In this document: piece by piece, positions 11,378 to 24,507 of the stretch
Numbering within the stretch: the stretch's first letter is position 1
Layout of the letters: each line of letters starts with the position of its first letter
NCBI GenBank assembly: GCA_020343435.1
Contig: CP070794.1
Location: 126,413 to 190,412 of the forward strand
Reading direction: 5' to 3'
Length of the DNA: 64,000 nt
Source of the DNA: an archaeon
GTDB taxonomy: Archaea; Nanobdellota; Nanobdellia; Pacearchaeales; UBA284
The notes under the pieces: generated by a model
What the model saw: only the letters and a program-made list of their open reading frames with translations
What the model was told of the DNA's origin: nothing
Database searches by the model: none
Program-made: the position numbers and the translations under genes

Positions 11378-12444
11378 AGACAAGCTCCAGATGCTGGGGG
11401 AATATGATAAGTTTCATTAGCTTCTACAAAAGTCATCTCAAGCCAAGAAGGAACTTTATTTGTTGCATCTACAATTTTAACCTCCGAATCCTCAGAACTA
11501 AAGTAAGAATGATCAACAAGACTTTTACCAGGCATTAAAGTACGCCCAACTTTAACCCCATGTATTATGCTCTCAATACCAGATTCTGTATCTTGAGCAT
11601 CAAACTGGCCTTTTAATCTACTTAGATAATTTGGGGCATTGGGACTATATGCATAAAATGAACTAGTATAATCAGGTTCCTGAGCACCATCTGCCCATGT
11701 TCTTTCTAAATGCATGCTTAAATTAGTTCCATTACAAGTTCCAGTACTATTATTAACAAAAGATGTATATGGTGTTCTTTTGATTAAACTAACAACATCT
11801 CTTCCAAATTCTCTGGTATAGAAAGGATCTTCTAAATTATATAATGGAATTTTTCCTTCTACAACAGCATATCTGTCCCATACAGCATTAAGTTCATCAT
11901 CTTCAATAACATAGTGAAGAGTAACATTCATATCAATTGCCCATGGAGTAGATTGACCTATGCTCACCCCAATATCATCTATATCTAAATCCCGGAATTC
12001 TAAATTAATCCCTTGTTTACTTGCTCTATCTATGATACTCCCCTGCCAATCCGCTAGAGTCATCCCTTCTAGAAATCTGGAGCCATCATAACCTTCAATA
12101 ATAAGTTCTCCATTGATAAAAGCATCTTTAAAAACCACATCATAGTCCACACTCAAAGGGATATAATCCTCTGCTGAAGAAATATAATCTAATAATCCTA
12201 AAACAGTCCTATATCCTGAAATATAAATTGCTCTTTCAGCATCTTTTTCTACAGACTCTACAAAACTATTTGTGGTTAGAACTCTGGTTCTAATTGATTC
12301 TTTAGTATACTCTCTTCTGTAAGAAAAAGAAACTAATAATAATAGAGTTATAAGAAAAAGAACTGTTAAAGTAAAGAAAAATGCTTTTTTATTTTTCATA
12401 AATTTTTTATTTTTCATTTTATCTCCAAGCCATTGTTTTTGCAA
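11365..12444 (-). CDS. Pilin-like protein with class III signal peptide (KKA|FFFTLTVLFLITLLLL), 359 aa
   Basis: The N-terminus resembles the FFTLDALFA motif of the upstream adhesin. It overlaps the 1239-aa gene, so it is the last gene of the pilin operon. Confidence 0.5.
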   Translation of the reverse strand: MQKQWLGDKMKNKKFMKNKKAFFFTLTVLFLITLLLLVSFSYRREYTKESIRTRVLTTNSFVESVEKDAERAIYISGYRTVLGLLDYISSAEDYIPLSVDYDVVFKDAFINGELIIEGYDGSRFLEGMTLADWQGSIIDRASKQGINLEFRDLDIDDIGVSIGQSTPWAIDMNVTLHYVIEDDELNAVWDRYAVVEGKIPLYNLEDPFYTREFGRDVVSLIKRTPYTSFVNNSTGTCNGTNLSMHLERTWADGAQEPDYTSSFYAYSPNAPNYLSRLKGQFDAQDTESGIESIIHGVKVGRTLMPGKSLVDHSYFSSEDSEVKIVDATNKVPSWLEMTFVEANETYHIPPASGACLQFI

Positions 12445-15400
12445 TGGTGAAATGTAAAAAAGGAATTCCTGGAACTAAAACAGCATTAATTCCTAACTCT
12501 GTATTGAATTGGATGTCAGACATATTATTCTTAGGATTCTGATCAAGAATGTCATTTAAAAGGTTAAAAACTGCGACATCATAAGCTTCATCTTCATCAT
12601 ATTTTATGTTTGGAGGCCCCAAAGTTTTTGAAAAAGTACAGGTCTCTGTAGGATTTGTACCTGCAGGAACTGCTAATTCAAAAGTTCCTCCAGGAAGATC
12701 AGGATTTGAAGGATCTTGATATTGGATAGTCCATATACAACCCTCTCCAACCTTATTTACAGCCCCGCTATATGAAAAAGTTGGAGGAATAAATAATGTA
12801 TAAATTATCTTACTTGAATCATCTGGAGGAGTTTCATTATATGAACTATTTGTTCCAAAAACTAAACCAACTTCATTTACAGTGGGCCCTTTTGAAATTC
12901 TTTCTACAGGAATATTAATTGTGAAAGGATCTCCTAATGTGATATATGTTTCATTCCATTTAGTTAAATTAAAGAAAGTTAAGTTATGTGTTGTGTTTTG
13001 TATAAAAGATTCTCTGCTCCATAAGTCTCCAGAATAGGAGATAACTGATGCTTCAAAAGGATCTCCAGTTGCAAAAGTAAAACTATCCATCCCTCCTGAG
13101 AAACCATCTGTTTCATAACTTATAAGATCCCCAAAAAGAGAGTTTCCATCAGTATCCCAACCATTATCCTCAAAATCATAACCAAAAGTTACTGTACCAT
13201 TACTAAGATTAGATTTTGCACTTCCTATTACAATGATAACTGATTGATTAGCATAAGTAAGTCTCAAGATTTCTTGTGCCCACTCTCTAAAAATTATCCT
13301 TAGTTCTGAAGCATTATTACTCAAGAAATAATCTCCCTCTCCTTCTTCAGCAATTCTCATCATTAAATCTTGAGCAATAGGACAGAAGGCTATTGGACCA
13401 AATCCAACAGCATATATTGTTGCATTAGCTGTGTTATGGCCCCTAGTTGCTTCACTTATAGATTGATCTATTGACTTTTGATTTACCCAGTCCCCACATA
13501 TCATTAACCAAGAAGAAGCTGAAGAAGAGTAATAATGACTATAAAATCCTTGGGTGTGAGAATTTGTAATTCCTGAAATAATGTACCATTTATTCTCTAT
13601 TAAATTATAAGCTAAATCTGGTGAAGGCCCTTGTCCTCCAGGAGCATCACTTAAATCTAAACCAAAAGCAATAGTATCAGTTCTTGTCCAACCTGTTCCA
13701 TTCCAGAAGAAACCATAATAATCACTACCACTAGATCCAGTAACTAATTCCCATTCTCCTGTACCAGTAATATTAAATCCAGTTGTTGGAGCACTATTAG
13801 TTCCAATATCTCCTGGAGGGGCTAAAGAATCGTCTCTTTCCCAACCTGTTCCATTCCAGAAGAAACTAGCAAAAGAACCATCATCCATCCCAGAAATAAG
13901 CACCCATTTTCCATTACCTGTAAGATTAAAAACAACAGTGGGATCAGCTTGAGTCCTTGAGGCTATAGTTAAACCACCAACCAAGGTAGAATTTGAAACC
14001 CAACTATCACCATCCCAAGAAAATCCTGCAAAACTACCGTTATACAAACCAAAGATCAAATCATGTTTATTAGTCCCAGAAAATTCATATAATAATTCTG
14101 GGGCAGGGTAAGTATTTGAACCTAAGTTAGACAAACCACTTATAACAGATGGTGTAAGGACCCATCTTAATCCATTCCACTCATGACCATAAACATTACC
14201 TGCTTTATCTCCTACAACCAGATTCCACTTTCCATTTCCTCTTAAGTCATAAGTAACAGCAACTTTTGCAGATTGGCCACTTGTTATCTGAGCAACACGA
14301 TCATGACAACCAACACCACAATCAACCCCCTCACAAAAATCATCATCGGGACATCTCTCAGAAATACATCCTGGATCAACACGATCAATATCTGTTTCAT
14401 TACAATGAACATTTGTTAAACCATCTGCTAAAACTAAAATAAAACTTGGTCTATCTTGTTCTTCAGGAGGTCTTGCTTCCAACATCAATCTTGCTTTTCT
14501 CAAACCTGCACAAACAGGAGTATCCCCACCAGTTGCATAACCATTAAGATCACTTACAAGAGTTACATTATTATTAGTGAGTCCTGTAGAATACTGGATA
14601 ACGTTTGGAGTTGTTGCTCCCCCTGGAGTTGAACCAGGTCTTGCGCTATATCCAACCAGTCCAACTCTATTCTCAGAATGTTCTAAAAGTATATTTAAGA
14701 ACTCTATAGCCAAACATTTTGCAACATTTAATCTCCTTCTTCCTGGAAGAAAGATTGGATTATCAGGATCTGAAAGATTGCCACACGCTATATTTTGATC
14801 TCCATTTTTATAGTCTTTGTCCATCCTCCATATCATACTACCAGAAACATCCATAACAACAATTACGTCTGCTGGTCCCCTGCCCCCAATTTGTGCTTCT
14901 ATTTCTTCTATTCCCACTCTAAAAGGAACATTTTCTTTGCTAATATCTAAATAAGTTATACCTTGTTCTGATAAAAGTTTACTTGAGATAGTAGAATTAG
15001 TTATTTGTACAGAATTATATCCTTTTTTATTTCCCCTTTCATCTCTCCATACAGTAACATTTCCTATCTTTACAAAAGGAGTTGTATTCTCTTCCTGCTC
15101 ATATTCTAAATTAATAACCACGTTTGTTAAATTCCCAGGAATGTAGAAAGAATCATAGATATTCATAGATCCATTAATAAATGGAAGATATTTTGTTTCT
15201 GGTAACAAGTATGAAACGCTTCCAGTAGTATATTTTATTTTTAAGAAACCTCCAGCAATGTAAAGAGATCTATTATACGTTGTTGTATTAAATTTGATTT
15301 CATTAATCCCCCCATTAAAATAAGGGTCAATAGGATCTGGAAATTGCCCCCCATCTAAAGAGATAGGACAATGTTTACATGTAGATGGAGAAAAGGTTTC

Positions 15401-16138
15401 AGGGAACAAACGATCATTTACAGATATTTGAAAAGTGTCTCCCATGATCACTCCCTCAAAAGATAAAGAAGTTACATTGATATCCAAAGGTAAATCAAAT
15501 CTTTGAGTTATGTTTCCATCTCCAACATATCCCCCAAAATAAACATATTTTGTTTTCTCTGGTCTATAAAGATAAGCTCTTGAAGAATAACCTTTAACAG
15601 GTTGTTCATAAGCAATCCCACTCATATGTTTTTTAGCAGCAACTACATCTCTTGAATTTGCAAAAGGAATATTGCTTTTAGACCATATTTCAATTAAAAC
15701 AGTTCCAGAAGGGTCTGGAGCTTCAAAATAAAGACCAATATTGTCTTCTTCTGTTGTTATGCTATCAAAAAAACTTTCAGTGATCTCTCCACTAATATTA
15801 TTTGCAGGGGTTTGACCATAATGGGTCGCCCAAATTTTACCAATTGTATCTATTAGATTATCTTTATCTTCCAAAATCTCTATTCGAACAGAATTATTTA
15901 ATTGAGAAATGTTTCCATTTATTAAAGAATTGTTTATACTTACTGTATTGAGATTTGAGAGAAGAGTCAACATATCTTCTTGTAAATAAGAGGTTCTATG
16001 TTTTTCAGGAACATCTCCAACATATGCAAAAGGAACTAAGATAATCACAGATAACAAGATTACCAAAGCAAAAAGAGCATCCAGAGTAAAAAAATACCCC
16101 CTCTTTTGTTTTAGTTTTTTCATTTTAAGCTTTTTCAA
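12419..16138 (-). CDS. Giant pilin-anchored adhesin with class III signal peptide, a vWA domain carrying a complete MIDAS, and FG-GAP-like beta-propeller repeats (integrin-like)
   Basis: N-terminus KRG|YFFTLDALFALVILLSVIIL. vWA: ADVIVVMDVSGSM (DxSxS), ..GGDT.., ..LVLADGLTN... Four repeats of G(N/D)GKW.L..G...G.F..F.WNGTGW (aa about 630-830). Many N-x-S/T sequons. Confidence 0.7.
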   Translation of the reverse strand: MKKLKMKKLKQKRGYFFTLDALFALVILLSVIILVPFAYVGDVPEKHRTSYLQEDMLTLLSNLNTVSINNSLINGNISQLNNSVRIEILEDKDNLIDTIGKIWATHYGQTPANNISGEITESFFDSITTEEDNIGLYFEAPDPSGTVLIEIWSKSNIPFANSRDVVAAKKHMSGIAYEQPVKGYSSRAYLYRPEKTKYVYFGGYVGDGNITQRFDLPLDINVTSLSFEGVIMGDTFQISVNDRLFPETFSPSTCKHCPISLDGGQFPDPIDPYFNGGINEIKFNTTTYNRSLYIAGGFLKIKYTTGSVSYLLPETKYLPFINGSMNIYDSFYIPGNLTNVVINLEYEQEENTTPFVKIGNVTVWRDERGNKKGYNSVQITNSTISSKLLSEQGITYLDISKENVPFRVGIEEIEAQIGGRGPADVIVVMDVSGSMIWRMDKDYKNGDQNIACGNLSDPDNPIFLPGRRRLNVAKCLAIEFLNILLEHSENRVGLVGYSARPGSTPGGATTPNVIQYSTGLTNNNVTLVSDLNGYATGGDTPVCAGLRKARLMLEARPPEEQDRPSFILVLADGLTNVHCNETDIDRVDPGCISERCPDDDFCEGVDCGVGCHDRVAQITSGQSAKVAVTYDLRGNGKWNLVVGDKAGNVYGHEWNGLRWVLTPSVISGLSNLGSNTYPAPELLYEFSGTNKHDLIFGLYNGSFAGFSWDGDSWVSNSTLVGGLTIASRTQADPTVVFNLTGNGKWVLISGMDDGSFASFFWNGTGWERDDSLAPPGDIGTNSAPTTGFNITGTGEWELVTGSSGSDYYGFFWNGTGWTRTDTIAFGLDLSDAPGGQGPSPDLAYNLIENKWYIISGITNSHTQGFYSHYYSSSASSWLMICGDWVNQKSIDQSISEATRGHNTANATIYAVGFGPIAFCPIAQDLMMRIAEEGEGDYFLSNNASELRIIFREWAQEILRLTYANQSVIIVIGSAKSNLSNGTVTFGYDFEDNGWDTDGNSLFGDLISYETDGFSGGMDSFTFATGDPFEASVISYSGDLWSRESFIQNTTHNLTFFNLTKWNETYITLGDPFTINIPVERISKGPTVNEVGLVFGTNSSYNETPPDDSSKIIYTLFIPPTFSYSGAVNKVGEGCIWTIQYQDPSNPDLPGGTFELAVPAGTNPTETCTFSKTLGPPNIKYDEDEAYDVAVFNLLNDILDQNPKNNMSDIQFNTELGINAVLVPGIPFLHFTIAKTMAWR

Positions 16139-16718
16139 AAGACCATAAATAAATAACCATCCTTAAAGGAATGGTAATGTTACTTTCATTCTTATAAGCA
16201 ACTAAACGTTCTATTTTAACAAGTTGTGTTGGATTCTTACCTTGTATTGTATTTCCTGCTCCAGAACAACCCCCAGGATCTGGAATTAATCTTGGAACCG
16301 GGGGGTCACTATAAAAATCCTCCATATTATCAAAAAATTGTATGAAAAAAGATGATTGGGTTCCAAACTTTTCTTTAACACCTGAATAATAGTTTTCGCT
16401 CCAATCACAAAATTTTGTCCATTTCGCTGGATCCAATGTATTATCAGTAATTAATCCAAATTGATAAATATCTTCAAGGTTCTCTGGACTAAGCGTAATT
16501 TCTTCCCATCCTGGAGGGGTCCCATTAATTAATAGAGAATTTGATATATATCTTCCTTCTCTCACCATCCTACTAACAATGTTTTGTTCAGGAACAAAAC
16601 TTACAGAATAACGATAGAAAAGAAAAATAATCATAACAAAAACCATTAGACCAATAGCTAAGTCAAGAGCCCAAACTTGAGCTTTTTTATTTTTTCTTGA
16701 GAGATTTAAGTTTGGCAA
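16125..16718 (-). CDS. Pilin-like protein (class III signal peptide KKA|QVWALDLAIGLMVFVMIIF)
   Basis: 197 aa; basic N-terminus, small residue, then Q and a hydrophobic helix. It overlaps neighbours on both sides. Confidence 0.5.
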   Translation of the reverse strand: MPNLNLSRKNKKAQVWALDLAIGLMVFVMIIFLFYRYSVSFVPEQNIVSRMVREGRYISNSLLINGTPPGWEEITLSPENLEDIYQFGLITDNTLDPAKWTKFCDWSENYYSGVKEKFGTQSSFFIQFFDNMEDFYSDPPVPRLIPDPGGCSGAGNTIQGKNPTQLVKIERLVAYKNESNITIPLRMVIYLWSFEKA

Positions 16719-17140
16719 TCTAATTTTAATTCCTCCTGTTCTCCAGCTTCTCTAATCTTTTCTATAGTAACTGTTCCCCCTGGAATAAGAGGTTCCACAT
16801 CATTAATATAAGGTGTTCCTCTCGACGCTGTGAATTTAGTTTCACTCCCTCTTAAAGTTTTAACTACAAAACCATATCCAGAATCAGACATTAAGATAGA
16901 ATACTCTTTTCCAGTAATTTTTTTAGGTAATGTAAACTCTCTAGAATAATTTGGAGGGGATCCCGAAGCTAAAGTTATTTCTTGTTGTAGAAAATTTGCA
17001 AAATCATTTAAAGATTCTTGTTCATTTTTCTCTCTTGCTAAAGAAGTATTAAAATTAGCTGAAGCAATCATTATTACTACTAAAAAAATAACTGCTGAGA
17101 CTAATAATGTGAATTCAATTGTTACTTGTCCTTTTTTCAT
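16706..17140 (-). CDS. Type IV pilin (archaeal, Q-x-S/T-x-E-F class; KKG|QVTIEFTLLVSAVIFLVV)
   Basis: The QxTxEF motif after KG is characteristic of EppA/PibD-processed archaeal pilins (DUF361-like). 144 aa. Confidence 0.65.
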   Translation of the reverse strand: MKKGQVTIEFTLLVSAVIFLVVIMIASANFNTSLAREKNEQESLNDFANFLQQEITLASGSPPNYSREFTLPKKITGKEYSILMSDSGYGFVVKTLRGSETKFTASRGTPYINDVEPLIPGGTVTIEKIREAGEQEELKLDCQT

Positions 17141-17141
17141 T

Positions 17142-17600
17142 TTATTGATTTGTTTTGGTTACCTCAACATAAATCCCATTAGAATCATTCTTTGCTTCCA
17201 AAGTCAGAGTCTTAAAACCTGCCTTAGATAAACTGGTTTGGACACCCCCTCCATCCTCTATTCTTCCTTGAGTATCATAAATCATATCTGATCTCGCTGT
17301 TCCTTTGATAGTAACTTTAAAATGGATGCCAAAAGGGGAAGTATCTAGAAACTCTACACTATAAACGCTCTCAGGAATAGTTACTTGAATTGTTGCCTTA
17401 GAAGGAGGACCTAAAAAGTAAATTGAATCGGCAGCTTCAGCAATTTTTTTTCCAGCTTTATCAACAGTATTGACTTTTATTTGAGTTTTTGCTGTTCCAG
17501 AATAATAGTAAGCGATACCTATTATGGCTATTAAAAGGAAAGTAATAAAACCAATAAGTAAAGCGAACTCTACACTTACCTGACCTCTTTTTTTTCTCAT
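17142..17600 (-). CDS. Type IV pilin (archaeal; RG|QVSVEFALLIGFITFLLIAII), probable major pilin
   Basis: Canonical class III signal peptide with Q+1, S+3, E+5, F+6. It is the first gene of the operon and 152 aa long. Confidence 0.7.
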   Translation of the reverse strand: MRKKRGQVSVEFALLIGFITFLLIAIIGIAYYYSGTAKTQIKVNTVDKAGKKIAEAADSIYFLGPPSKATIQVTIPESVYSVEFLDTSPFGIHFKVTIKGTARSDMIYDTQGRIEDGGGVQTSLSKAGFKTLTLEAKNDSNGIYVEVTKTNQ

Positions 17601-17682
17601 AATTTCAAAGTAAGGTTTATAAAATACCTTTTCTTTTTAAACTGTGTAAAAAAAGAGGCTGTGATTTATAAATCTTACTAGA
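17601..17682. promoter_or_regulatory. Divergent promoter region between the pilin operon (-) and the pilus-assembly operon (+), with TATA-like boxes
   Basis: ggtttataaaa (about 17615-17626) and gatttataaatc (about 17655-17666), each about 25-30 bp from the respective start codon. These are AT-rich BRE/TATA-like elements. Confidence 0.35.
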
Positions 17683-19293
17683 ATGGATTACCAAAAGAAA
17701 CTGAAAAAAAAGTATGGTGAAACATATCTTCGGGAAGTATTCAATGAGAGAGTCACAAAAATTTTAATTTTAGAAACATATAGGGGAACTATTTTTATTG
17801 AACTTTTCCATAAAGATATCCCTTTGATTAAAGATGTTATCTCTAGTGTTCTTTTGGGGGAACTTGATGGGATGGTATTTTACAATTGTAATCCTTACTT
17901 CTTACAATTAAGAAAAAGTGCTGAAGAAAAAAAGATGTCTGATAGGATTCTTAGACCCTACTTACAAAACATAAAGGGAACTGTTGGTTTGGTAAGTTCG
18001 AAAAGAAATGCACAGAAATCTTTACTAGATCATTTTTACATTTGTTTATCTGATGTTCCTGAAATCGATGGAGAATATACTATAATTGGAAAGGTGGTTC
18101 GTGGTTTTGATATTTTAACTAAGGTATGGAATGGTAATACTATAAGAAGAGCATACATAGAAAAAGGATTTGTTGGAAAAGAACCAACAATTAAGAGGTT
18201 GGGAGCACTATACTGGGTTGGTTTAGCAACAATTTTATTTTATGCGTTCTGGTTATTATCAAGAAATCTTGTTTCATTACAAAATTTCCAAAAATCTATT
18301 TTTGGAAGTGTTTTTACAGAAACGCTATCCAAAGGAAACGCGATATTTATTCTGATAGTGGGAATAATTCTGATAATCTTTGCTTTAACAGTAAGTGGAT
18401 TAAGTGCGAGAGTGAAAGTTGGAGAAACACCAACAGCCCTAAAAGAGAGAGACGAAGAGAAAAAGATGTTGATGAAAGTTAGAGAAAAGAGATTAAAGAT
18501 GATGGAGACGTTGAGAAAGAAAGAAAAAAGTAAAACCCCGGTTTTTAAGAAAGAAGTTAGAGAGGAAGATAAAGGAGGAAAAAGACTGGAAAAAGAGAAA
18601 AGAGAGATTGAAGAACTTAGAAAGAAGTTAGAGAGAGAAAAGAAAGAATTTGAGGAGCGTCTTAGAAAACAAAAAGTTCCTTCAAAAGCAGAATTAAGAG
18701 AATTAAGTAAAGGAAAGGAGGAAAAAGAGAGATTAAAGAAGGAGAGATTAAGACTAAGAGAAATAAAAGCTAAAAGAAAAGCTAAGGAAGAAGAGAAAAA
18801 GAGGAGAGAAGAAGAAAAGATTAAGATAAGAGAGGCTAAGATAAGAGAAAAGAAAGCTAGAGAAAAGGCAAGAGAAGACGCTAAGAAAAAAGCAGAGGAA
18901 GAAAGACAGAAGATTAAAGAGGCTAAGATAAGAGAAAAGAAAGAAAGGATTAAGAAGACTGTGAAAGAAAAGAATAAAGAAGAACAGAAAGAGAGGAAAA
19001 AGATGGTACAAGTAATGGAAAAACACATAGATACTAAAAAAGAGATTAAAAAGAAACTAAAAGAAGAAATTAAAAGAGAAGTATTACCAAGAATTGCTCA
19101 AAAAACTGAGACACAATTAGATATTTTATATGATCTTTTAGAAAAATATAAAACACTAAAATTAGATTATATTATGAAAACATTTGAGATTAGTAAAGAA
19201 GAAGCAATAGAGTGGTGTAATATTCTTGTTGAAAATGGTCTTGCTGAATTAAAATATCCTGCATTTGGAGAGCCCCTTTTAATTAAAAAATGA
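17683..19293 (+). CDS. Fusion protein: N-terminal cyclophilin-type PPIase-like domain, 2 TM helices, about 220-aa E/R/K-rich predicted single alpha-helix/coiled-coil region, and a C-terminal winged-helix-like domain
   Basis: TYRGTIFIELFHKDIPL.. and ..GEYTIIGKVVRGFDILTKV resemble cyclophilin motifs (..HvVFGkV.eGmdVv.ki). TM helices at aa about 172-195 and 220-240. Highly charged repeats (EKKAREKAREDAKKKAEEERQKIKEAKIREKK) from nt about 18430 to 19090. C-terminus ..LDILYDLLEKYKTLKLDYIMKTFEISKEEAIEWCNILVENGLAEL. Confidence 0.5.
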   Translation: MDYQKKLKKKYGETYLREVFNERVTKILILETYRGTIFIELFHKDIPLIKDVISSVLLGELDGMVFYNCNPYFLQLRKSAEEKKMSDRILRPYLQNIKGTVGLVSSKRNAQKSLLDHFYICLSDVPEIDGEYTIIGKVVRGFDILTKVWNGNTIRRAYIEKGFVGKEPTIKRLGALYWVGLATILFYAFWLLSRNLVSLQNFQKSIFGSVFTETLSKGNAIFILIVGIILIIFALTVSGLSARVKVGETPTALKERDEEKKMLMKVREKRLKMMETLRKKEKSKTPVFKKEVREEDKGGKRLEKEKREIEELRKKLEREKKEFEERLRKQKVPSKAELRELSKGKEEKERLKKERLRLREIKAKRKAKEEEKKRREEEKIKIREAKIREKKAREKAREDAKKKAEEERQKIKEAKIREKKERIKKTVKEKNKEEQKERKKMVQVMEKHIDTKKEIKKKLKEEIKREVLPRIAQKTETQLDILYDLLEKYKTLKLDYIMKTFEISKEEAIEWCNILVENGLAELKYPAFGEPLLIKK

Positions 19294-21083
19294 AAAAAAG
19301 AAAGATAAAATCAAGGACCAAGAAAAAAAAAGTGAAGAAAAGAAAAAAGTCTTTCCATGCTCTCTCTGTTCCAAAACCAACTTGGAAAAAACCAATAAAA
19401 GAAACACATGATAAACTTGGTTTTCCAAGTAAAACTGTAGAAATAAAAAAAGTGGGTTCTGTAGTGACAACCCCACAGACAGAAAAAGACAAAAAATTGG
19501 GTTTACCAACAAAGACAGATAAAGAAGAGATACAAGAAATAAAAACCAAGATCAAGGAAAGAATTCAAGTTCATGGAAAGATCATAAAAACATATGATAT
19601 TGATTCTAATAATGTTAAGGTAAAGATATCTATATTAGATACAGAAAAAGGACTATTCTACCAAATAAAAATTCCAGAAATATCTCGTCCAACTCGGGCA
19701 CTTTTAGAGAACATAAAACAAAAATTAATAGGCACTATTGAAATGGGGGCTTCTGAGATAACAGATATTAATGCTATAGAAAAACTAAAACAAAAATTAA
19801 TATCTCGTTCAAAAGACTTATTACAAAGATTCAAATCATCTAGGGATAACATAACTCTTTTAACAAGTATTCTAATTAATGAGATGTTGGGGTTAGGCAA
19901 TATAGAACTTTTAGTTGCAGATCCCCATTTAGAAGAAATAGTTATAGCATCTGCACAAGAACCTGTAAGAGTTTATCATAAAGAATTTGGTTGGTTGCCA
20001 ACGAACATTTATTTAGAAAACGAAAAACAAACTGAAAATTACTCTGCTATAATTGCAAGGCGTGTTGGAAGACAAATTACAACCCTAACTCCAATGTTGG
20101 ATGCTCACCTTGTAACTGGTGATCGTGTAAATGCTGTTTTATATCCTATATGTACAAGAGGGAATACAATAACAATTAGGAAATTTGCAAGAGAACCATG
20201 GACCATTGTGGATTTCATTAATAATAAGACTTGCAGTGCAGACGTTTTTGCGATGATATGGATGGCAATACAATATGAAATGAACATTCTATTTTCTGGT
20301 GGAACAGCCTCTGGAAAAACAACTATGTTGAACGTCTGCACTCCTTTCTTCCCAGCAAATCATAGAATTCTAAGTATTGAAGATACTAGAGAGTTGCAGT
20401 TACCAGAACACTTGTATTGGTCTCCATTAACAACAAGGTTACCAAATCCTGAAGGAAAGGGAGCAGTTACAATGTTGGATCTATTGGTTAATAGTTTAAG
20501 AATGAGGCCAGATAGGATAATTCTTGGAGAGGTAAGAAAACACGAAACAGCAGAAGTACTTTTTGAGGCAATGCATACTGGTCATAGTGTTTATTCTACA
20601 GTTCACGCAAATACATCTTCAGAAACAGTTGCTAGATTAGTAAATCCCCCAATTAGCATTCCTCCAAACTTGTTGAAAGCAGTAGACCTTAATGTTGTAA
20701 TGTTTAGAGAGAGGAGAAGAGGAATAAGAAGAGTCTTTCAATTAACAGAACTAATTCCAGATGAAACTGATAAAAACGGAGTAAAGCCAAATATCCTTTA
20801 TAGATGGGAACCAAGTTCAGATAAGATTATATCTCATGCTTCAACTTTAAGATTCTTTGAAGATATGTCAAGACATACTGGAATGAGTTTTTCTCAGATT
20901 AATAAAGATCTAAAAGAAAAAAAAGAATTTATAGAACATCTTGTGAAAAACAACATCAGAGAGATGAATAGTATAGGAAAAATGATTCAGGATTTCTATC
21001 TTAAAAAAGGAATAAAAGATATAAAAACCAAAAAACCTTCTAAAATTAAGAAAATTAAAAAGAAAAAGAGAAAAAAGAGGTAA
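19290..21083 (+). CDS. Type IV pilus / archaellum-type assembly ATPase (FlaI/ArlI-PilB-GspE-VirB11 superfamily)
   Basis: Walker A FSGGTASGKTTMLN, Asp/Glu boxes (..ILSIEDTRELQL..), His box (..ILGEVRKHE..) and a Lys-rich N-terminal extension. Its start overlaps the upstream gene. Confidence 0.85.
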   Translation: MKKRKIKSRTKKKKVKKRKKSFHALSVPKPTWKKPIKETHDKLGFPSKTVEIKKVGSVVTTPQTEKDKKLGLPTKTDKEEIQEIKTKIKERIQVHGKIIKTYDIDSNNVKVKISILDTEKGLFYQIKIPEISRPTRALLENIKQKLIGTIEMGASEITDINAIEKLKQKLISRSKDLLQRFKSSRDNITLLTSILINEMLGLGNIELLVADPHLEEIVIASAQEPVRVYHKEFGWLPTNIYLENEKQTENYSAIIARRVGRQITTLTPMLDAHLVTGDRVNAVLYPICTRGNTITIRKFAREPWTIVDFINNKTCSADVFAMIWMAIQYEMNILFSGGTASGKTTMLNVCTPFFPANHRILSIEDTRELQLPEHLYWSPLTTRLPNPEGKGAVTMLDLLVNSLRMRPDRIILGEVRKHETAEVLFEAMHTGHSVYSTVHANTSSETVARLVNPPISIPPNLLKAVDLNVVMFRERRRGIRRVFQLTELIPDETDKNGVKPNILYRWEPSSDKIISHASTLRFFEDMSRHTGMSFSQINKDLKEKKEFIEHLVKNNIREMNSIGKMIQDFYLKKGIKDIKTKKPSKIKKIKKKKRKKR

Positions 21084-21085
21084 AA

Positions 21086-21967
21086 ATGAAGTTAAGAATT
21101 CCATTTTCTTTTTATCCGCCAAAATTTTTGTATAGGTTCTCAAATGCTTTTCTATCAGTTGGTAAAAAGATGGTTTCTAAAAATAAGAATATGGAGCTAT
21201 ACTTCTCACAATCAGATTTCCCAATAAAACCTGAAAGATATATTGCTGCTTCTATTGCATCAACAATTCTTAATTTAATTATTTTCAGTTTAATCTTTAT
21301 AATAATTTTCAGAGCAGGAGGATCAAATCCTCTTTTTGGATTGCTTATCGGCATAGTAGTTGCAGGGTTCATGTATATGCAGCAATTAAATTATCCTAAG
21401 ATGATAATTTCTAAACGTATAAGAAACATTAATGTTAATATTCTTCCAGCAATCAGAGCTTTAATGATTCAATTAAATGCTGGAATTACATTCTTTAATG
21501 CTTTAAAAAATATAGCAAAAGGAAATTATGGAGTAATTTCAGAAGAATTCCAAAAAGCAATAAACTCTATGGAAGCTGGAGTTCCTGCAGTTGAAGCTCT
21601 TGAAAAAATTTCTAGAAACAATCCTTCGCTCTTCTTCAGAAGAGCTATTTGGCAGATAATAACTGGAATCCAAGTTGGAGCAGATATTTCAATAGTTCTT
21701 AAGGAAATTGTTCATTCATTAGTACAAGAACAAATGACAGAGATACAAGCATATGGAGGGAGGTTGTCTCCATTAGCTATGTTTTATATGGTTATCTCAA
21801 TTATATTCCCAGCATTAGGGATAACATTTTTGATGATATTATCTACATTTATACAAGGTCTTGGACAAAATTACCAGTTGATACTTTTCGGAATATTAGC
21901 ATTAGTTATTTTATTCCAGTTTATATTTTTGGGAATGATAAAATCAAGGAGGCCGCCACTGATATAA
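21086..21967 (+). CDS. Pilus assembly polytopic membrane protein, TadB/TadC (T2SS-F/FlaJ-like) half 1
   Basis: 293 aa with multiple TM segments and a cytoplasmic helical domain (..ALMIQLNAGITFFNALKNIAKG..) typical of the GspF/TadC repeat. It lies directly downstream of the ATPase. Confidence 0.65.
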   Translation: MKLRIPFSFYPPKFLYRFSNAFLSVGKKMVSKNKNMELYFSQSDFPIKPERYIAASIASTILNLIIFSLIFIIIFRAGGSNPLFGLLIGIVVAGFMYMQQLNYPKMIISKRIRNINVNILPAIRALMIQLNAGITFFNALKNIAKGNYGVISEEFQKAINSMEAGVPAVEALEKISRNNPSLFFRRAIWQIITGIQVGADISIVLKEIVHSLVQEQMTEIQAYGGRLSPLAMFYMVISIIFPALGITFLMILSTFIQGLGQNYQLILFGILALVILFQFIFLGMIKSRRPPLI

Positions 21968-21968
21968 A

Positions 21969-22934
21969 ATGAGATTATTTGCAAGATTTTCACCAAAGTT
22001 CACAGAAAAGATAGAAAAGCTAGTAGAATATGCTAATGTTAAAAAGAATCCTAGAGAACTTGCAGGGATGATTATTTTCATAAGTCTAGTAATTGCTGTA
22101 GTTGCGTTTGTAGCATTATTCTTGTTTGTTGGGTGGATATACTCCATTCCAGTAGCAGTTGTAATTTATTTTGTGGTTCCATTAATCTTCCAGTTAATGC
22201 TTGTTCTAAAAGCAGATAAAAGAGCTTCCCAAGCAGAAGAAGCACTACCAGATGCTTTGCAATTAATGGCAACAAACTTGAGAGCAGGATTAACAACAGA
22301 TAAAGCACTTTTAGTTTCAGCAAGAGAAGAGTTTGGGGTACTTAATGAAGAATTTAAGCGGGTTGCAAAAGAGATTGCTGTGGGAAAAGAGATAACAGAG
22401 TCATTAAAAAGAATGTCAGAAAGAATACATTCAGATCTTGTAGAAAGAACTTTAAGTCTAATAATTTTTGGAATAATTTCTGGAGGAGAATTAGCATCAT
22501 TACTCGAAGAATCTGCTGCAAGCCTAAGACAACAAAGTCTAACAAGAAAACAAATTCATGCAAGTGTCTTAATGTATACTATTTTCATAATTGTTGCAGT
22601 GGCAGCTATTTCTCCTCTACTCTTTGGATTAAGTTCTGTTCTTACAGAAACTATGCAAGAAACTATTGGATCTATAGAAGCTCCGCCTCCAGAAGTTACT
22701 TCTCAGGTTCCATTATCCATCTCGCCAGTAGACATAGATGTTGGTTTGATAAGGATATTTATAATAATACTATTAGTAGTAAGTGCTATCCTAAGTTCTC
22801 TGGTTTTAGGACTAATATCTAAAGGTAATGAAAAAGCGGGATTAAAATATATACCAATATTAATGATAATCTCTTTAGTGGTGTTCTTTGTAGTAAGAAC
22901 TGGAATTGTAAAACTTCTGGAGATGTTTTTCTAG
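21969..22934 (+). CDS. Pilus assembly polytopic membrane protein, TadC/FlaJ-like half 2
   Basis: 321 aa; a second GspF-like repeat (..LQLMATNLRAGLTTDKALLVSAREEFGVLNEEFKRVAKEIAVGKEITESLKRMSER..). Together with the previous gene it equals a split FlaJ. Confidence 0.65.
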   Translation: MRLFARFSPKFTEKIEKLVEYANVKKNPRELAGMIIFISLVIAVVAFVALFLFVGWIYSIPVAVVIYFVVPLIFQLMLVLKADKRASQAEEALPDALQLMATNLRAGLTTDKALLVSAREEFGVLNEEFKRVAKEIAVGKEITESLKRMSERIHSDLVERTLSLIIFGIISGGELASLLEESAASLRQQSLTRKQIHASVLMYTIFIIVAVAAISPLLFGLSSVLTETMQETIGSIEAPPPEVTSQVPLSISPVDIDVGLIRIFIIILLVVSAILSSLVLGLISKGNEKAGLKYIPILMIISLVVFFVVRTGIVKLLEMFF

Positions 22935-22973: not shown

Positions 22974-23732
22974 ATGGTAAAAAAGAAAAAAGGGGTAAAG
23001 AAGAAAGTTAAGAAGATAATTAAAAAAAATGAAAAGATAGAAACAGGGATCCCGGCTTTTGATAAGATTAGTAAGGGGGGATTTAATGAAGAATCTGTTA
23101 ATTTAATTGTTGGTGGAGCTGGAGCTGGTAAAACTATTTTTTCTATAAAATTCTTAATGGAAGGAATGATCAAAGGAGAAACTTGTCTGTACATTACTTT
23201 TGAGGAAAAGAAAGATGAATTATATAAGAACATGCTGTCTTTTGGATGGGATTTAGCAGATTATGAAAAAAAAGGTAAGTTTATCTTTGTGGAATATACT
23301 CCTGAGAAAGTTAGAAAAATGCTTCAAGAAGGTGGGGGGGCTTTAGAAAGTCTTATGTACAGTAAAAAAATAAGTAGGCTTGTGATAGATAGTGTAACTT
23401 CCTTTACCCTACTTTTTGAAGGGGAATTGGCAAAAAGAGAGGCAGCTCTTTCATTATTTGATATGACTAGAAGATGGAAAACAACTGTATTACTAACGTC
23501 AGAAAGAGAATTAACAAAAAAAGATTTAACATCTGGGACAAGTTCAGCTCTAGAATTCGAAGCAGATTCTATAATATTACTTTATTTCTTAAGAGAGGGC
23601 GGGGAAAGAAAGAGGTTGATAGAAGTCCTTAAAATGAGAGGAACCCAACACTCTAAAAGCCTTTATCCTTTTCAAATAACTAGTAAGGGTGTTGAGATAA
23701 GTAGTAAAGCTAAGAAAATAAATCTAAAATAA
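22974..23732 (+). CDS. KaiC/RecA-superfamily ATPase, FlaH(ArlH)-like
   Basis: GIPAFDKISKGGFNEESVNLIVGGAGAGKT (Walker A) and ..LYITFEE.. match the KaiC-like domain. The 252-aa single domain and position next to the pilus ATPase and membrane genes mirror FlaH. Confidence 0.7.
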   Translation: MVKKKKGVKKKVKKIIKKNEKIETGIPAFDKISKGGFNEESVNLIVGGAGAGKTIFSIKFLMEGMIKGETCLYITFEEKKDELYKNMLSFGWDLADYEKKGKFIFVEYTPEKVRKMLQEGGGALESLMYSKKISRLVIDSVTSFTLLFEGELAKREAALSLFDMTRRWKTTVLLTSERELTKKDLTSGTSSALEFEADSIILLYFLREGGERKRLIEVLKMRGTQHSKSLYPFQITSKGVEISSKAKKINLK

Positions 23733-24137
23733 TCAAACATCAACCACACATTCTACAATCCAACTCTTTTTTTTGTAAATTTTTAACCCAGAATAAGTTG
23801 CTGCCTTAACTTCTGTTCTTAATTGATGTTCTTTTTTTATTTTTTCTCCAAAAGCAAAACCTTGTAATTTGTTTTTATCTAATCTAGTTATCTTAAATTT
23901 TGAGAACAACATATTTTTCAAAGAGGATTGGCTTAGTAAGGCATTTAACCATTCAATAAAGAGTTCTTCCTTATTTTCTGCTTTACAAGAAATCTTAATT
24001 TTTTTGGAAGCTTTAATTTTTTTTATGTTTGCTTGAACAGAAAACATAGCTTTCGCAGCTTCTGTAAAAGCTTCTTTTACAGTTTTTCCCTTACCTCTAA
24101 TTCCAATGTCTGCTTTATGTTCAAAAGTTTCATGCAT
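23733..24137 (-). CDS. Archease (RtcB tRNA-ligase cofactor)
   Basis: Begins MHETFEHKADIGIRGKGKTVKEAFTEAAKAMF.., the archease signature (FxHTADxGxxxxGxxxEE.F..AA). Size 134 aa. Confidence 0.8.
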   Translation of the reverse strand: MHETFEHKADIGIRGKGKTVKEAFTEAAKAMFSVQANIKKIKASKKIKISCKAENKEELFIEWLNALLSQSSLKNMLFSKFKITRLDKNKLQGFAFGEKIKKEHQLRTEVKAATYSGLKIYKKKSWIVECVVDV

Positions 24138-24138
24138 T

Positions 24139-24507
24139 TTAATCTCTTAACCAAACATATGCTATAAATTTTTGGGTGTTTCCACTTTCCCAAACAAAAA
24201 AAGTTGAAGAACCAATTTCTTTTTCTAAGTTGGGAGGACTACATTTAGGATCACATTTTCTTATAGAGACGTCAAACCTTGTATGATTTATTTTTTCTTT
24301 TAATTTGGAATTTAAATCTTCAACATTTGTTAATAAAGATCCTCTCTCAGTAGTTGTCGCTTCTTCAACAACATAATCTAAAACAGAACTTGTATCTATA
24401 GATGTACTCCCTGGTTGTCTTGACATAGATATGAATAAAAAACTAAACATGATTAGAACTGCTATAACAACTTCTATAACTAAAAGCCAACCTTTTTTAT
24501 TCACCAT
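24139..24507 (-). CDS. Pilin-like small protein (KKG|WLLVIEVVIAVLIMF), 122 aa
   Basis: The N-terminus closely resembles the bacterial/archaeal type IV pilin G|FTLIEVVIA consensus. It overlaps the upstream gene and is downstream of the DUF87 ATPase. Confidence 0.45.
   Translation of the reverse strand: MVNKKGWLLVIEVVIAVLIMFSFLFISMSRQPGSTSIDTSSVLDYVVEEATTTERGSLLTNVEDLNSKLKEKINHTRFDVSIRKCDPKCSPPNLEKEIGSSTFFVWESGNTQKFIAYVWLRD

What the first reader, a model, noticed from the sequence alone, without database searches (positions are those of the whole stretch)
17683..19293. Cyclophilin-like / 2TM / 220-aa ER/K-rich helix / winged-helix-like fusion protein heading the pilus assembly operon
The N-terminal 160 aa carry cyclophilin-like motifs (GTIFIELF..., ...YTIIGKVVRGFDILTKV). 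Two TM helices follow. Then comes an extraordinarily charged E/R/K repeat region (nt about 18430-19090), predicted single alpha-helix or coiled-coil spacer. A compact C-terminal helical domain ends the protein. The gene overlaps the pilus ATPase start (19290/19293), so it is co-transcribed. A membrane-tethered PPIase with a rigid ER/K ruler is an odd and undescribed architecture. It could be a pilin-folding chaperone or a periplasmic-space ruler.
Basis: partly seen in the sequence, partly recalled or inferred. Interest (0 to 1): 0.55.

Follow-up and report, generated by a model that had tools for sequence, protein, structure and literature searches.

The report
Dead-cyclophilin membrane adaptor of archaeal pilus motor
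This real, conserved gene of tiny DPANN archaea encodes a membrane protein that most likely tethers the pilus-assembly ATPase to the membrane through a small winged-helix domain, and in this lineage it has also gained an apparently inactive cyclophilin domain and a long charged helical spacer.

Summary
The ORF (17683-19293, 536 aa) is real and has the described layout. It has a cyclophilin-like domain (CLD), two TM helices, a 219-aa ER/K-rich linker and a C-terminal winged helix (wH). It overlaps the FlaI/TadA-like ATPase start (ATGA).

The same architecture and locus plan recur in about 10 independent Pacearchaeota/Woesearchaeota assemblies, so the ORF is not a frameshift artefact.

- **CLD:** it is homologous to cyclophilins (Pfam 46 bits; hhalign 99%) but lacks the catalytic residues (hCypA R55→N, H126→Y, W121→E, Q111→H). 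It is probably a peptide binder, not a PPIase.
- **Topology:** both soluble parts are inferred to be cytoplasmic, which argues against a periplasmic ruler or a chaperone for exported pilins.
- **Linker:** its length ranges from 146 to 349 aa and it is predicted as several helices, so it is a tether rather than a ruler.

The main new result concerns the wH. It defines a large unnamed family (1,025 clusters), typically 2TM, a 14-26-aa linker, then wH. In 42 of 42 testable metagenome loci this gene lies directly upstream of the pilus ATPase.

The window protein is therefore that conserved pilus-machine component with a CLD and an expanded linker added. Two proline motifs in the ATPase N-terminal tail co-occur with the CLD and are candidate ligands.

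The parts
17683..19293 (+). Whole gene: CLD, 2 TM helices, charged linker and winged-helix protein (536 aa).
   Evidence: The ORF appears. It is identical to NCBI protein P0009. Orthologues with the same architecture occur in L003-L007, L076-L078 and P0004-P0011, P0022, P0023.
17683..18177 (+). Cyclophilin-like domain, aa 1-165, including a family-specific N-terminal helical extension (aa 1-27). It is predicted to be catalytically inactive.
   Evidence: Pfam PF00160 gives 46.1 bits against GA 21.7. PDB cyclophilins match at about E 2.5e-5. hhalign gives 99% probability. The substitutions are R55->N68, Q111->H117, F113->Y119, W121->E127 and H126->Y132, and they are invariant or nearly so in the family. 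The AF2 model of this part has low confidence, pLDDT 28-50.
18199..18405 (+). Transmembrane hairpin: TM1 aa 173-193, an external loop of about 25 aa, and TM2 aa 219-241.
   Evidence: Hydropathy analysis. AF2 helices 168-195 and 217-245 have pLDDT 75-86. A 2-TM hairpin sits in front of the wH in most relatives of the wH family.
18424..19080 (+). ER/K-rich charged helical linker, aa 248-466.
   Evidence: It is 68% charged with net charge +36. The salt-bridge pattern gives z = 3.8 and the 3.5-residue hydrophobic periodicity gives z = 4.6. AF2 predicts helices 250-284, 299-329 and 335-438, then a disordered stretch 439-475. Linker length is 146-349 aa in orthologues, against 14-26 aa in CLD-less relatives. 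Degenerate DNA tandem repeats lie at 18749-18947.
19081..19290 (+). C-terminal winged-helix domain (aa 467-536). This is the most conserved part of the protein.
   Evidence: Mean column identity is 76-78%. AF2 pLDDT is 77-88 with topology H-b-H-H-b-b. Foldseek's best match is 2vqc, the F-112 wH, at E 5.5e-3. A weak Pfam PCI hit scores 21 bits against GA 22. A profile search finds 1,025 clusters at E<=1e-3.
19290..21083 (+). FlaI/TadA-like type IV pilus assembly ATPase. Its start overlaps the stop of the gene above (ATGA).
   Evidence: Pfam T2SSE at 1.4e-36. The NCBIfam FlaI model scores 292 bits, below its cut-off of 550. The overlap is visible.
19353..19517 (+). Proline-containing short motifs in the disordered, K-rich N-terminal tail of the ATPase: FHALSVPKP (aa 22-30), DKLGFP (aa 41-46) and KKLGLP (aa 68-73). 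They are candidate ligands of the CLD.
   Evidence: Both motif types are present in the eight distinct main CLD-clade loci examined. They are absent from the divergent CLD locus L078. Among 52 CLD-less loci, 51 lack the K[LY]G[LFI]P-type motif and 51 lack an FHxLxVPxP-like motif, the exceptions being two different loose matches.
21086..22934 (+). Two half-size TadC/T2SSF platform genes (293 and 321 aa).
   Evidence: Pfam T2SSF at 1e-16 for each. They are syntenic in the related loci.
22974..23732 (+). KaiC-family ATPase, the last gene of the assembly operon.
   Evidence: Pfam KaiC at 1.5e-56. The match to ArlH is weak, 60.6 bits against a cut-off of 215. It is syntenic in many loci.
12419..17600 (-). 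Divergent operon: three pilin-like proteins with class III signal peptides (17142-17600, 16706-17140, 16125-16718) and a 1239-aa vWA protein (12419-16138).
   Evidence: Pfam Class_IIIsignal and TadE hits fall below threshold, and VWA_2 scores 28.6 bits. Synteny is shown.
17601..17682 (.). An 82-bp divergent intergenic region with two TTTATAAA TATA-like boxes.
   Evidence: Sequence. The promoter assignment was not tested.

Best explanation
The protein is a membrane-anchored, cytoplasm-facing adaptor of a DPANN type IV pilus-like assembly machine.

**Core module.** Its ancestral core is a 2-TM hairpin followed by a winged-helix domain. This module is encoded directly upstream of the pilus ATPase in a very large set of DPANN loci. 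It most likely docks the FlaI/TadA-like ATPase at the TadC platform by protein-protein contact. The associated KaiC ATPase is an alternative partner. This role resembles that of ArlX in the crenarchaeal archaellum or GspL/PilM-N in bacteria.

**Additions in this lineage.** In one monophyletic Pacearchaeota/Woesearchaeota lineage the protein gained two things:
- An N-terminal cyclophilin-like domain placed right at the membrane. It has lost the catalytic residues but keeps a conserved version of the proline-peptide groove.
- A 150-350-aa ER/K-rich helical tether, which moves the wH away from the membrane.

I propose that the dead cyclophilin holds proline motifs (FHxLxVPxP and K[LY]G[LFI]P) that appeared in the disordered N-terminal tail of the same lineage's ATPase. 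This would give a second attachment point or a regulatory one.

**Shown here:** the domains, their conservation, the active-site substitutions, the size of the wH family, its 42/42 adjacency to the ATPase gene, and the co-occurrence of the motifs with the CLD.

**Inferred:** the N-in/C-in topology, the wH-ATPase contact, CLD-motif binding, and the scaffold role.
For: **Conservation of architecture and synteny.** Six full-length orthologues keep the same architecture. The locus plan vWA<-pilins | gene->ATPase->TadC->TadC->KaiC recurs in L001-L007, as far as each contig extends.

**The wH domain family.**
- The wH is the most conserved part of the protein, at 76-78% column identity against 68% for the CLD.
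- An exhaustive profile search finds 1,025 clusters at E<=1e-3 and 271 at E<=1e-10.
- The dominant architecture is 2 TM helices plus wH in proteins of 160-260 aa.
- In 42 of 42 metagenome loci with at least 1.5 kb downstream, the ATPase follows on the same strand. In 38 of 45 loci a pilin-like gene lies divergently upstream.
- Start/stop gaps are often overlaps or under 20 nt.
- Two further divergent wH variants also sit directly upstream of T2SSE plus two T2SSF genes.

**The wH surface does not look DNA-binding.** Helix 3 is net negative in 99% of 145 representatives (mean -2.35). The wing carries a conserved acidic YPxFG[ED]P motif.

**The CLD.** Pfam and hhalign establish homology. R55->N, H126->Y, W121->E and Q111->H are fixed family-wide, so the canonical groove is conserved but chemically altered.

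**The proline motifs.** They are present in the eight distinct main CLD-clade ATPase tails examined. Each motif type gave only one loose regex match among 52 CLD-less tails. In L078 the motifs are absent, the CLD is the most diverged (34% identity) and the linker is no longer ER/K-rich.

**The linker.** It is 14-26 aa in 55 CLD-less proteins and 146-349 aa in CLD proteins.

**The ArlX analogy.** ArlX is a membrane-anchored cytosolic scaffold that contacts ArlI and the KaiC-like ArlH (PMC8978795).
Against: - No physical interaction was tested or modelled.
- The CLD-containing loci form one clade in the ATPase tree. The CLD-motif co-occurrence is therefore essentially one evolutionary event plus one possible correlated loss, and it could be coincidental lineage history.
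- The AF2 model of the CLD has low confidence (pLDDT 28-50), so the state of the groove is inferred from alignment only.
- Winged helices are most often DNA-binding, and the gene sits next to a divergent promoter region.
- One wH-family member without TM helices (P0052) is not in a pilus locus.
- The metagenome context survey sampled one abundant subfamily (patterns from A8), not the whole family.
- The topology is inferred. No topology predictor was available.
Confidence: 0.5

Rival explanations
1. The protein is a membrane-tethered transcription factor. The winged helix binds DNA in the 82-bp region between the divergent pilin and assembly operons. This would couple pilus gene expression to a membrane or envelope signal, in the manner of ArnR/ArnR1 in Sulfolobus or ToxR/CadC in bacteria.
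For: - The fold is a winged helix, and the closest PDB matches are DNA-binding proteins: F-112, AspA, PagR, MarR/ArsR types.
- The gene is the first one next to a divergent intergenic region that carries two TATA-like boxes.
- Membrane-bound regulators are known in archaeal pilus and archaellum loci (PMC4858521).
Against: - The putative recognition helix is net acidic in 99% of 145 family representatives, and the wing motif YPxFG[ED]P is acidic.
- The gene is tightly packed or overlapping with the ATPase gene in 42 of 42 loci. This pattern fits a stoichiometric subunit.
- The domain order is TM first and wH last, the reverse of ArnR as I recall it (N-terminal HTH, C-terminal TM region).
- A weak profile hit points to the PCI wH, which is a protein-protein module.
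- In two loci the pilin genes are co-directional upstream, so there is no divergent promoter to regulate.
Confidence: 0.15
2. The protein is a genuine, non-canonical membrane-anchored PPIase or foldase. It would work at the cytoplasmic face, isomerising prolines in the ATPase tail, the TadC loops or prepilin leaders during machine assembly. The linker and wH would only position it.
For: - Cyclophilin homology is significant.
- Q63 and the hydrophobic pocket positions are retained as Y/F72, F73, Y119 and I/F128.
- Proline motifs exist in the ATPase tail.
- NCBI annotates the protein as a peptidylprolyl isomerase.
Against: - The catalytic Arg55 is an invariant Asn, H126 is Tyr, W121 is Glu, Q111 is His, and the GGD loop is lost.
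- From established mutagenesis of human CypA (my knowledge, not tested here), R55 and H126 substitutions nearly abolish activity.
- Most systems of this type work without any CLD, so catalysis cannot be essential to the machine.
- Probable inactive cyclophilins such as PPIL6, and the spliceosomal cyclophilin CWC27, appear among the PDB matches.
Confidence: 0.12
3. The charged region or the whole fusion is an assembly or frameshift artefact of a low-complexity, repeat-rich stretch.
For: - The region breaks other assemblies. L001 has a 100-N scaffold gap inside it, and a contig ends there in L002.
- Linker length differs among near-identical strains: the proteins are 475, 494 and 589 aa.
- Degenerate tandem repeats are present.
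Against: - Six full-length assemblies without Ns keep one open frame from the CLD to the conserved wH.
- The wH is always in frame after the linker, and the C-terminus is 68-85% identical across them.
- The exact length of the linker may still be mis-assembled in individual MAGs.
Confidence: 0.02

Closest known systems
ArlX (FlaX), cytosolic scaffold ring of the crenarchaeal archaellum motor
   Same: It is membrane-anchored and has a largely helical cytoplasmic part. It is encoded in the operon of a FlaI-type ATPase, a KaiC-like ATPase and a TadC/ArlJ-like platform. It is proposed to hold the ATPase complex at the membrane (PMC8978795).
   Different: No ArlX/FlaX model appeared among the NCBIfam matches to the window protein at E<=0.1. 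ArlX has one TM helix and no winged helix or cyclophilin domain. This locus has no detected archaellin or ArlF/G genes and is pilus-like. Ring formation was not tested here.
GspL / PilM-PilN / BfpC-type bitopic adaptors of bacterial type II secretion and type IV pili
   Same: This is a functional analogy, drawn from my knowledge. These are membrane proteins whose cytoplasmic domain binds the assembly ATPase and links it to the platform.
   Different: They have an unrelated fold (actin-like rather than winged helix) and a single TM helix with a periplasmic domain. No homology is claimed.
Inactive or non-canonical cyclophilin-like domains (e.g. PPIL6, CWC27)
   Same: They have the cyclophilin fold with active-site residues replaced, and they are used as proline-peptide or protein-binding modules. 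Both appear among the PDB sequence matches.
   Different: Those are soluble eukaryotic proteins. Here the domain is fused to a TM hairpin in an archaeal pilus operon, with a specific substitution set (N, H, Y, E, Y) that is conserved family-wide.
ER/K single alpha-helix (SAH) spacers (myosin VI/X, caldesmon type)
   Same: The linker has a very high E/K/R content, enriched i/i+3 and i/i+4 opposite-charge pairs, and long predicted helices.
   Different: It is interrupted by Pro/Gly breaks and carries a net charge of +36 in this protein. Significant 3.5-residue hydrophobic periodicity in this clade leaves coiled-coil pairing open. Length is not conserved.
Membrane-bound archaeal regulators of surface filaments (ArnR/ArnR1; arCOG00381)
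   Same: They combine an HTH or wH domain with TM segments and are encoded in or near archaellum or pilus loci (PMC4858521).
   Different: The window protein has the opposite domain order to ArnR as I recall it, an acidic helix 3, no sequence relationship detected by Pfam or NCBIfam, and strict adjacency to the ATPase gene.

Membership tests
Cyclophilin-type PPIase (Pfam PF00160) | Significant profile match over the whole domain | tested here: met
   46.1 bits against GA 21.7, aa 29-155. hhalign probability 99%, E 5e-18.
Cyclophilin-type PPIase (Pfam PF00160) | Catalytic and substrate residues of hCypA (R55, Q63, F60, M61, Q111, F113, W121, H126) | tested here: not met
   R55->N68, Q111->H117, F113->Y119, W121->E127 and H126->Y132, and the GGD loop is lost. 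Only Q63 (Q75) and the hydrophobic pocket positions are kept. Canonical database cyclophilins P0013, P0019, P0020 and P0021 give the same mapping.
Cyclophilin-type PPIase (Pfam PF00160) | Eight-stranded beta-barrel fold | tested here: inconclusive
   AF2 pLDDT is 28-50 over aa 23-168 with an 8-sequence alignment.
Cyclophilin-type PPIase (Pfam PF00160) | Prolyl isomerase activity | not testable with these tools
   This needs an enzyme assay.
ER/K single alpha-helix (SAH) domain | High E/K/R content with enriched i/i+3 and i/i+4 opposite-charge pairs | tested here: met
   68% charged. 118 pairs against 92.4 in shuffles, z = 3.8. z ranges from 3.8 to 11.6 in 10 members.
ER/K single alpha-helix (SAH) domain | No hydrophobic heptad seam; a continuous monomeric helix | tested here: inconclusive
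   3.5-residue hydrophobic periodicity gives z = 4.6 here and is not significant in five of the ten members tested. AF2 predicts three helices with breaks at 285-298 and 330-334. The oligomeric state cannot be tested.
Winged-helix fold | H1-b1-H2-H3-b2-b3 topology | tested here: met
   Two AF2 models, pLDDT 77-88. Foldseek matches wH proteins with TM up to 0.77 on the target, best E 5.5e-3.
Winged-helix DNA-binding regulators | Basic recognition helix and wing | tested here: not met
   Helix 3 net charge is <=0 in 99% of 145 representatives. The wing motif is acidic.
Unnamed 2TM-wH family encoded upstream of DPANN pilus ATPase genes (defined here) | wH profile match with conserved TDLDxLY...EW.KILE...YPxFGEP | tested here: met
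   The window sequence seeds the profile. 1,025 clusters match at E<=1e-3, and identity to 49 family representatives in the alignment is 36-57%.
Unnamed 2TM-wH family encoded upstream of DPANN pilus ATPase genes (defined here) | Two TM helices N-terminal to the wH, with the gene immediately upstream of the T2SSE ATPase gene | tested here: met
   (42 of 42 loci).
Unnamed 2TM-wH family encoded upstream of DPANN pilus ATPase genes (defined here) | Short (14-26 aa) TM2-to-wH linker and no N-terminal globular domain | tested here: not met
   The linker is 219 aa and a 170-aa CLD precedes TM1. The window protein is a derived variant of the family.
ArlX/FlaX | Sequence homology to ArlX | tested here: not met
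   No ArlX/FlaX model appeared among the NCBIfam or Pfam hits at E<=0.1. I did not check whether those libraries hold an ArlX model.
ArlX/FlaX | Ring-forming cytosolic domain that binds the ATPase and KaiC-like protein | not testable with these tools
   This needs biochemistry or complex modelling.

The most novel reading that the evidence does not exclude
The 2TM-winged-helix protein is a previously unrecognised core subunit of the type IV pilus-like machine that is widespread in DPANN archaea. It would be the missing membrane adaptor that holds the ATPase on the platform. One lineage has fused a catalytically dead cyclophilin to it, and that domain reads newly evolved proline motifs on the ATPase's own disordered tail. 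A 20-30 nm ER/K tether repositions the winged helix. Together these would form a built-in two-point clamp or regulator of pilus assembly.
Probability: 0.3. Interest if true: 0.7.

Novelty: new variant of a known kind. Interest (0 to 1): 0.55.

Why it matters
**Importance of the system.** DPANN archaea are thought to depend on cell-cell contact with hosts, and pili are prime candidates for that contact. Their pilus machines are known only from annotation of the ATPase, TadC and pilins.

**What this adds.**
- A further, strictly linked membrane component would change the parts list of these machines. It is found in more than 1,000 sequence clusters and is unnamed in Pfam and NCBIfam.
- It would give a concrete candidate for how the ATPase is held at the membrane in archaeal pili, a role for which no homologue of the bacterial adaptors was found here.
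- The cyclophilin fusion is a clean natural example of a PPIase fold reused as a probable non-catalytic peptide binder in a prokaryotic membrane machine.
- It comes with a specific ligand hypothesis that can be tested with peptides.
- It also corrects the database annotation 'peptidylprolyl isomerase'.

Tried and rejected
1. **Word-indexed searches with single domains.** The N-terminal 257 aa gave only 2 hits and the C-terminal 77 aa gave 1. This was too insensitive. A concatenated N+C profile and the exhaustive search solved the problem.
3. **Metagenome scan with a 50-sequence wH alignment.** It was repeated with a 9-sequence subfamily, so the context survey covers mainly that subfamily.
5. 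**Full-length AF2 model.** It gave an unusable CLD model, so no fold search of the CLD was run. Homology rests on profiles.
6. **Family libraries for the wH.** Pfam found no family above threshold for the wH domains or for ten wH-family proteins, and NCBIfam found none in the full-length window protein. PDB sequence search gave only 2vqc at E 0.28.
7. **Literature.** Makarova et al. 2016 and four full-text searches gave no description of a cyclophilin or of this wH protein in archaeal pilus loci.
8. **Rejected: periplasmic ruler.** This follows from the topology and the variable linker length.
9. **Rejected: frameshift artefact.** The architecture is conserved in frame.
10. **Rejected: archaellum.** The ATPase and the KaiC-family protein score below the FlaI and ArlH model cut-offs, and no archaellin, ArlF/G or ArlCDE/X was detected among the locus genes scanned.
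11. **Downgraded: CLD-motif co-occurrence as independent evidence.** The ATPase tree shows a single CLD clade.
Full report
**1.

The window has about 31% G+C. It carries an intact ORF at 17683-19293 (+) of 536 aa. The ORF is identical to an NCBI MAG protein annotated 'peptidylprolyl isomerase [archaeon]' on a 647,887-bp contig (P0009).

- **Cyclophilin domain.** Pfam finds a cyclophilin domain at aa 29-155 (E 8e-12, 46.1 bits against a cut-off of 21.7). PDB cyclophilins match at E about 2.5e-5.
- **TM helices.** Hydropathy gives two TM helices at about 173-193 and 219-241.
- **Charged region.** Residues 248-466 are 68% D/E/K/R with net charge +36.
- **Stop/start overlap.** The stop TGA (19291-19293) overlaps the ATG (19290-19292) of the next gene.

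**2. The surroundings are a type IV pilus-like locus**

The downstream genes on the same strand are:
- a FlaI/TadA-like ATPase (T2SSE 1.4e-36; the FlaI model scores below its cut-off),
- two half-size TadC/T2SSF genes,
- a KaiC-family ATPase.

The divergent upstream genes are three small proteins with class III signal-peptide-like N-termini and a 1239-aa vWA protein. Nothing specific to an archaellum was detected.

**3. The gene is conserved, so it is not an artefact**

A genome scan found five orthologous loci in Pacearchaeota and Woesearchaeota MAGs (L003-L007). Protein searches added P0004-P0012, P0022, P0023 and P0026.

All full-length members have the same parts in one frame: CLD, 2 TM helices, charged linker and a 70-aa C-domain. 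Proteins range from 463 to 673 aa and linkers from 146 to 349 aa.

Synteny is conserved as far as each contig extends: vWA<-pilin<-pilin<-pilin | gene->ATPase->TadC->TadC->KaiC.

The repeat-rich linker does break some assemblies. L001 has a 100-N gap in it, and a contig ends there in L002. Linker length also differs among near-identical strains, whose proteins are 475, 494 and 589 aa. Exact lengths should therefore be treated with care.

**4. The cyclophilin domain is real but looks catalytically dead**

A profile of 12 family members aligns to a profile of canonical cyclophilins with 99% probability (E 5e-18, 125 columns).

In that alignment and in MAFFT alignments, the active-site residues map as follows:

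| hCypA residue | Residue here | Status in the family |
|---|---|---|
| R55 | N68 | invariant |
| Q111 | H117 | nearly invariant |
| F113 | Y119 | invariant |
| W121 | E127 | nearly invariant |
| H126 | Y132 | nearly invariant |
| Q63 | Q75 | retained |

The GGD loop is replaced by L-R-K. The hydrophobic pocket positions are retained along with Q63.

Database cyclophilins P0013 and P0019-P0021 give the same mapping.

From established CypA mutagenesis (my knowledge), loss of R55 or H126 nearly abolishes catalysis. The canonical groove is thus the most conserved surface of the domain, yet it is chemically altered. That pattern suggests a binding site rather than an enzyme. The AF2 model of this part is poor (pLDDT 28-50), so this rests on alignments.

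**5. Topology**

There is no N-terminal signal peptide. A 170-aa domain precedes TM1 by about 8 residues, and a roughly 290-aa highly charged segment follows TM2. Both are therefore inferred to be cytoplasmic, with a loop of about 25 aa outside. This argues against the 'periplasmic ruler' and 'chaperone of exported pilins' readings. No topology predictor was available.

**6. The linker**

Opposite-charge pairs at i/i+3 and i/i+4 are enriched over shuffles in all ten members tested (z 3.8-11.6). A 3.5-residue hydrophobic periodicity is significant in the window's own clade (z 3.7-5.5). It is weaker in P0010 (z 2.3) and absent in the remaining four members. A single alpha-helix and a coiled coil therefore cannot be separated here.

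AF2 predicts helices 250-284, 299-329 and 335-438 (pLDDT up to 87), followed by a disordered stretch 439-475. Together with the 146-349-aa length range, this describes a segmented tether and not a ruler of fixed length.

**7. The C-terminal domain is a winged helix and defines a large family**

Two AF2 runs give H-b-H-H-b-b with pLDDT 77-88. Foldseek's best PDB hit is the SSV1 F-112 winged helix (E 5.5e-3), followed by many wH proteins. Pfam gives only a near-threshold PCI hit (21 against 22 bits, 5 of 6 members).

It is the most conserved part of the protein (76-78% column identity).

An exhaustive HMM search of 1.84 billion representatives found 1,025 proteins at E<=1e-3 and 271 at E<=1e-10. 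Most are 160-260 aa with two TM helices (about 8-26 and 60-78) followed by the wH. They have no Pfam family and no name beyond 'hypothetical protein'.

**8. That family is tied to the pilus ATPase gene**

A metagenome scan with one abundant subfamily returned 68 loci.
- In 42 of 42 loci with at least 1.5 kb downstream, the FlaI/TadA-like ATPase follows on the same strand.
- In 38 of 45 loci a pilin-like gene lies divergently upstream.
- TadC, TadC, KaiC and vWA follow the window's plan.
- Gene junctions are often overlaps or under 20 nt.
- Two divergent variants (P0092 with several TM helices, and P0027) are also directly upstream of T2SSE plus two T2SSF genes.
- One TM-less coiled-coil variant (P0052) is not in such a locus.

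The window protein is thus the positional and sequence orthologue of this small 2TM-wH gene. In CLD-less proteins the TM2-to-wH linker is tightly constrained at 14-26 aa (n = 55). In CLD proteins it is 146-349 aa.

**9. Protein docking rather than DNA binding**

Helix 3 is net negative in 99% of 145 representatives (mean -2.35). The wing carries a conserved acidic YPxFG[ED]P motif. Combined with the tight packing against the ATPase gene, I favour a protein-protein role. The most economical version is docking of the ATPase, or the KaiC ATPase, at the membrane platform.

This is an analogy to ArlX, a membrane-anchored cytosolic scaffold that contacts ArlI and the KaiC-like ArlH (PMC8978795). It is also an analogy to bacterial GspL/PilM-N (my knowledge). 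No homology is claimed.

**10. A candidate ligand for the dead cyclophilin**

The ATPase has a disordered, K-rich N-terminal tail everywhere, and its sequence is otherwise unconserved.

In the eight distinct main CLD-clade loci examined, the tail carries two conserved proline motifs, FHxLxVPxP and [EK]K[LY]G[LFI]P. Here they are FHALSVPKP, DKLGFP and KKLGLP.

Among 52 CLD-less loci, each motif type gave only one loose regex match, in different loci.

In the divergent CLD locus L078 the motifs are missing, the CLD is the most diverged (34% identity) and the linker is no longer ER/K-rich.

An NJ tree of ATPase cores shows all CLD loci in one clade, with L078 nested inside. The association therefore amounts to one gain and possibly one correlated loss. 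It is suggestive, not proof.

**11. Comparison with what is known, and novelty**

- The domain is a member of the cyclophilin superfamily by sequence, but it fails the catalytic-residue test.
- The wH fold is met, but the DNA-binding signature is not.
- The ER/K pattern is met, but the single-helix criteria are inconclusive.
- No ArlX/FlaX model appeared among the family-library hits.

Makarova et al. 2016 list KaiC, vWA and various regulators as accessory pilus components. Word searches of its main text found no mention of a cyclophilin, a winged helix or an HTH. Four literature searches found nothing on this protein.

I rate it a new variant of a known kind: a pilus-machine accessory membrane adaptor with an undescribed architecture, built on an apparently undescribed but widespread family.

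**12. Verdict**

The best explanation is a cytoplasm-facing membrane adaptor of the pilus ATPase, with an added non-catalytic cyclophilin and an expanded tether. My confidence is about 0.5. The interaction steps are inferred and need complex modelling or biochemistry.

Noticed in passing
window 24139-26515 (-): Two small proteins with class III signal-peptide-like N-termini (122 aa, MVNKKGWLLVIEVVIAVLIMF...; 229 aa, MMKNKKGVHHVEYVIAVSIFI...) lie just downstream, on the same strand, of a HerA/DUF87-type ATPase (25187-26515). The trio is syntenic in L001. It may be a second, unusual filament or secretion module driven by a HerA-like ATPase.
   Followed up: no
window 12419-16138 (-): The 1239-aa vWA protein starts with a pilin-like N-terminus (MKKLKMKKLKQKRGYFFTLDALFALVILL...). 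It carries repeated 'GNGKW.LV / GTGEWELV ... F.W.G..W' units that resemble FG-GAP or beta-propeller repeats. It could be a pilus-tip adhesin. It is conserved at only 27-46% identity across loci.
   Followed up: partly
window 19290-19574 (+), and L031, L033, L036, L040, L044: All ATPases of this system have a variable, K-rich, disordered N-terminal tail (8-216 aa upstream of the conserved core). One CLD-less subclade carries a different proline motif (KPALPVLPNL). In that subclade a 540-740-nt gap lies between the wH gene and the ATPase start, which may hide another small gene.
   Followed up: partly
L001 10986-11085; L002 start; P0004, P0005 and L003: The ER/K linker region breaks or gaps other assemblies. 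The protein is 475, 494 or 589 aa in near-identical strains because of tandem repeats of about 35 aa. This is either real rapid length variation or repeat collapse.
   Followed up: partly
window 17601-17682: The 82-bp divergent intergenic region holds two palindromic TTTATAAA TATA-like boxes, at 17616-17623 and 17665-17672. The second lies only 10-18 nt upstream of the ATG, so promoter assignment is unclear.
   Followed up: no
window 18240-19028 (-) and 18754-19026 (-): Long S/F/L-rich ORFs lie on the strand opposite the purine-rich linker-coding DNA. They are almost certainly shadow ORFs of the low-complexity region.
   Followed up: no
window 8143-11377 (+) and 23733-24137 (-): Mre11-like (Metallophos) and Rad50-like genes flank one side of the pilus locus and an archease gene flanks the other. 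The same neighbours occur in L001.
   Followed up: no
L080 5001-6824: P0052 is a 607-aa TM-less protein, apparently coiled-coil from its sequence, that ends in the same wH domain. It sits next to a giant 5075-aa protein and a 1123-aa protein with faint Big_1/MG2 hits, not in a pilus locus. The wH may be reused in another surface system.
   Followed up: partly
P0014-P0017: This is a separate group of about 200-aa divergent cyclophilins with lipoprotein-like N-termini and FYKIINYP in place of FHRVIPGF. They share the 'PEIDGRYSIFGKIIKGLDVLEKIN' C-terminal half with the window's CLD. They may be the closest free-standing relatives of the CLD.
   Followed up: no
L008-L075 wH genes: Among the 55 CLD-less 2TM-wH proteins analysed, 19 begin with M..[KR]G followed by the first hydrophobic helix, which resembles a class III (prepilin) signal. 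A conserved GLTGFS motif lies in the external loop.
   Followed up: no
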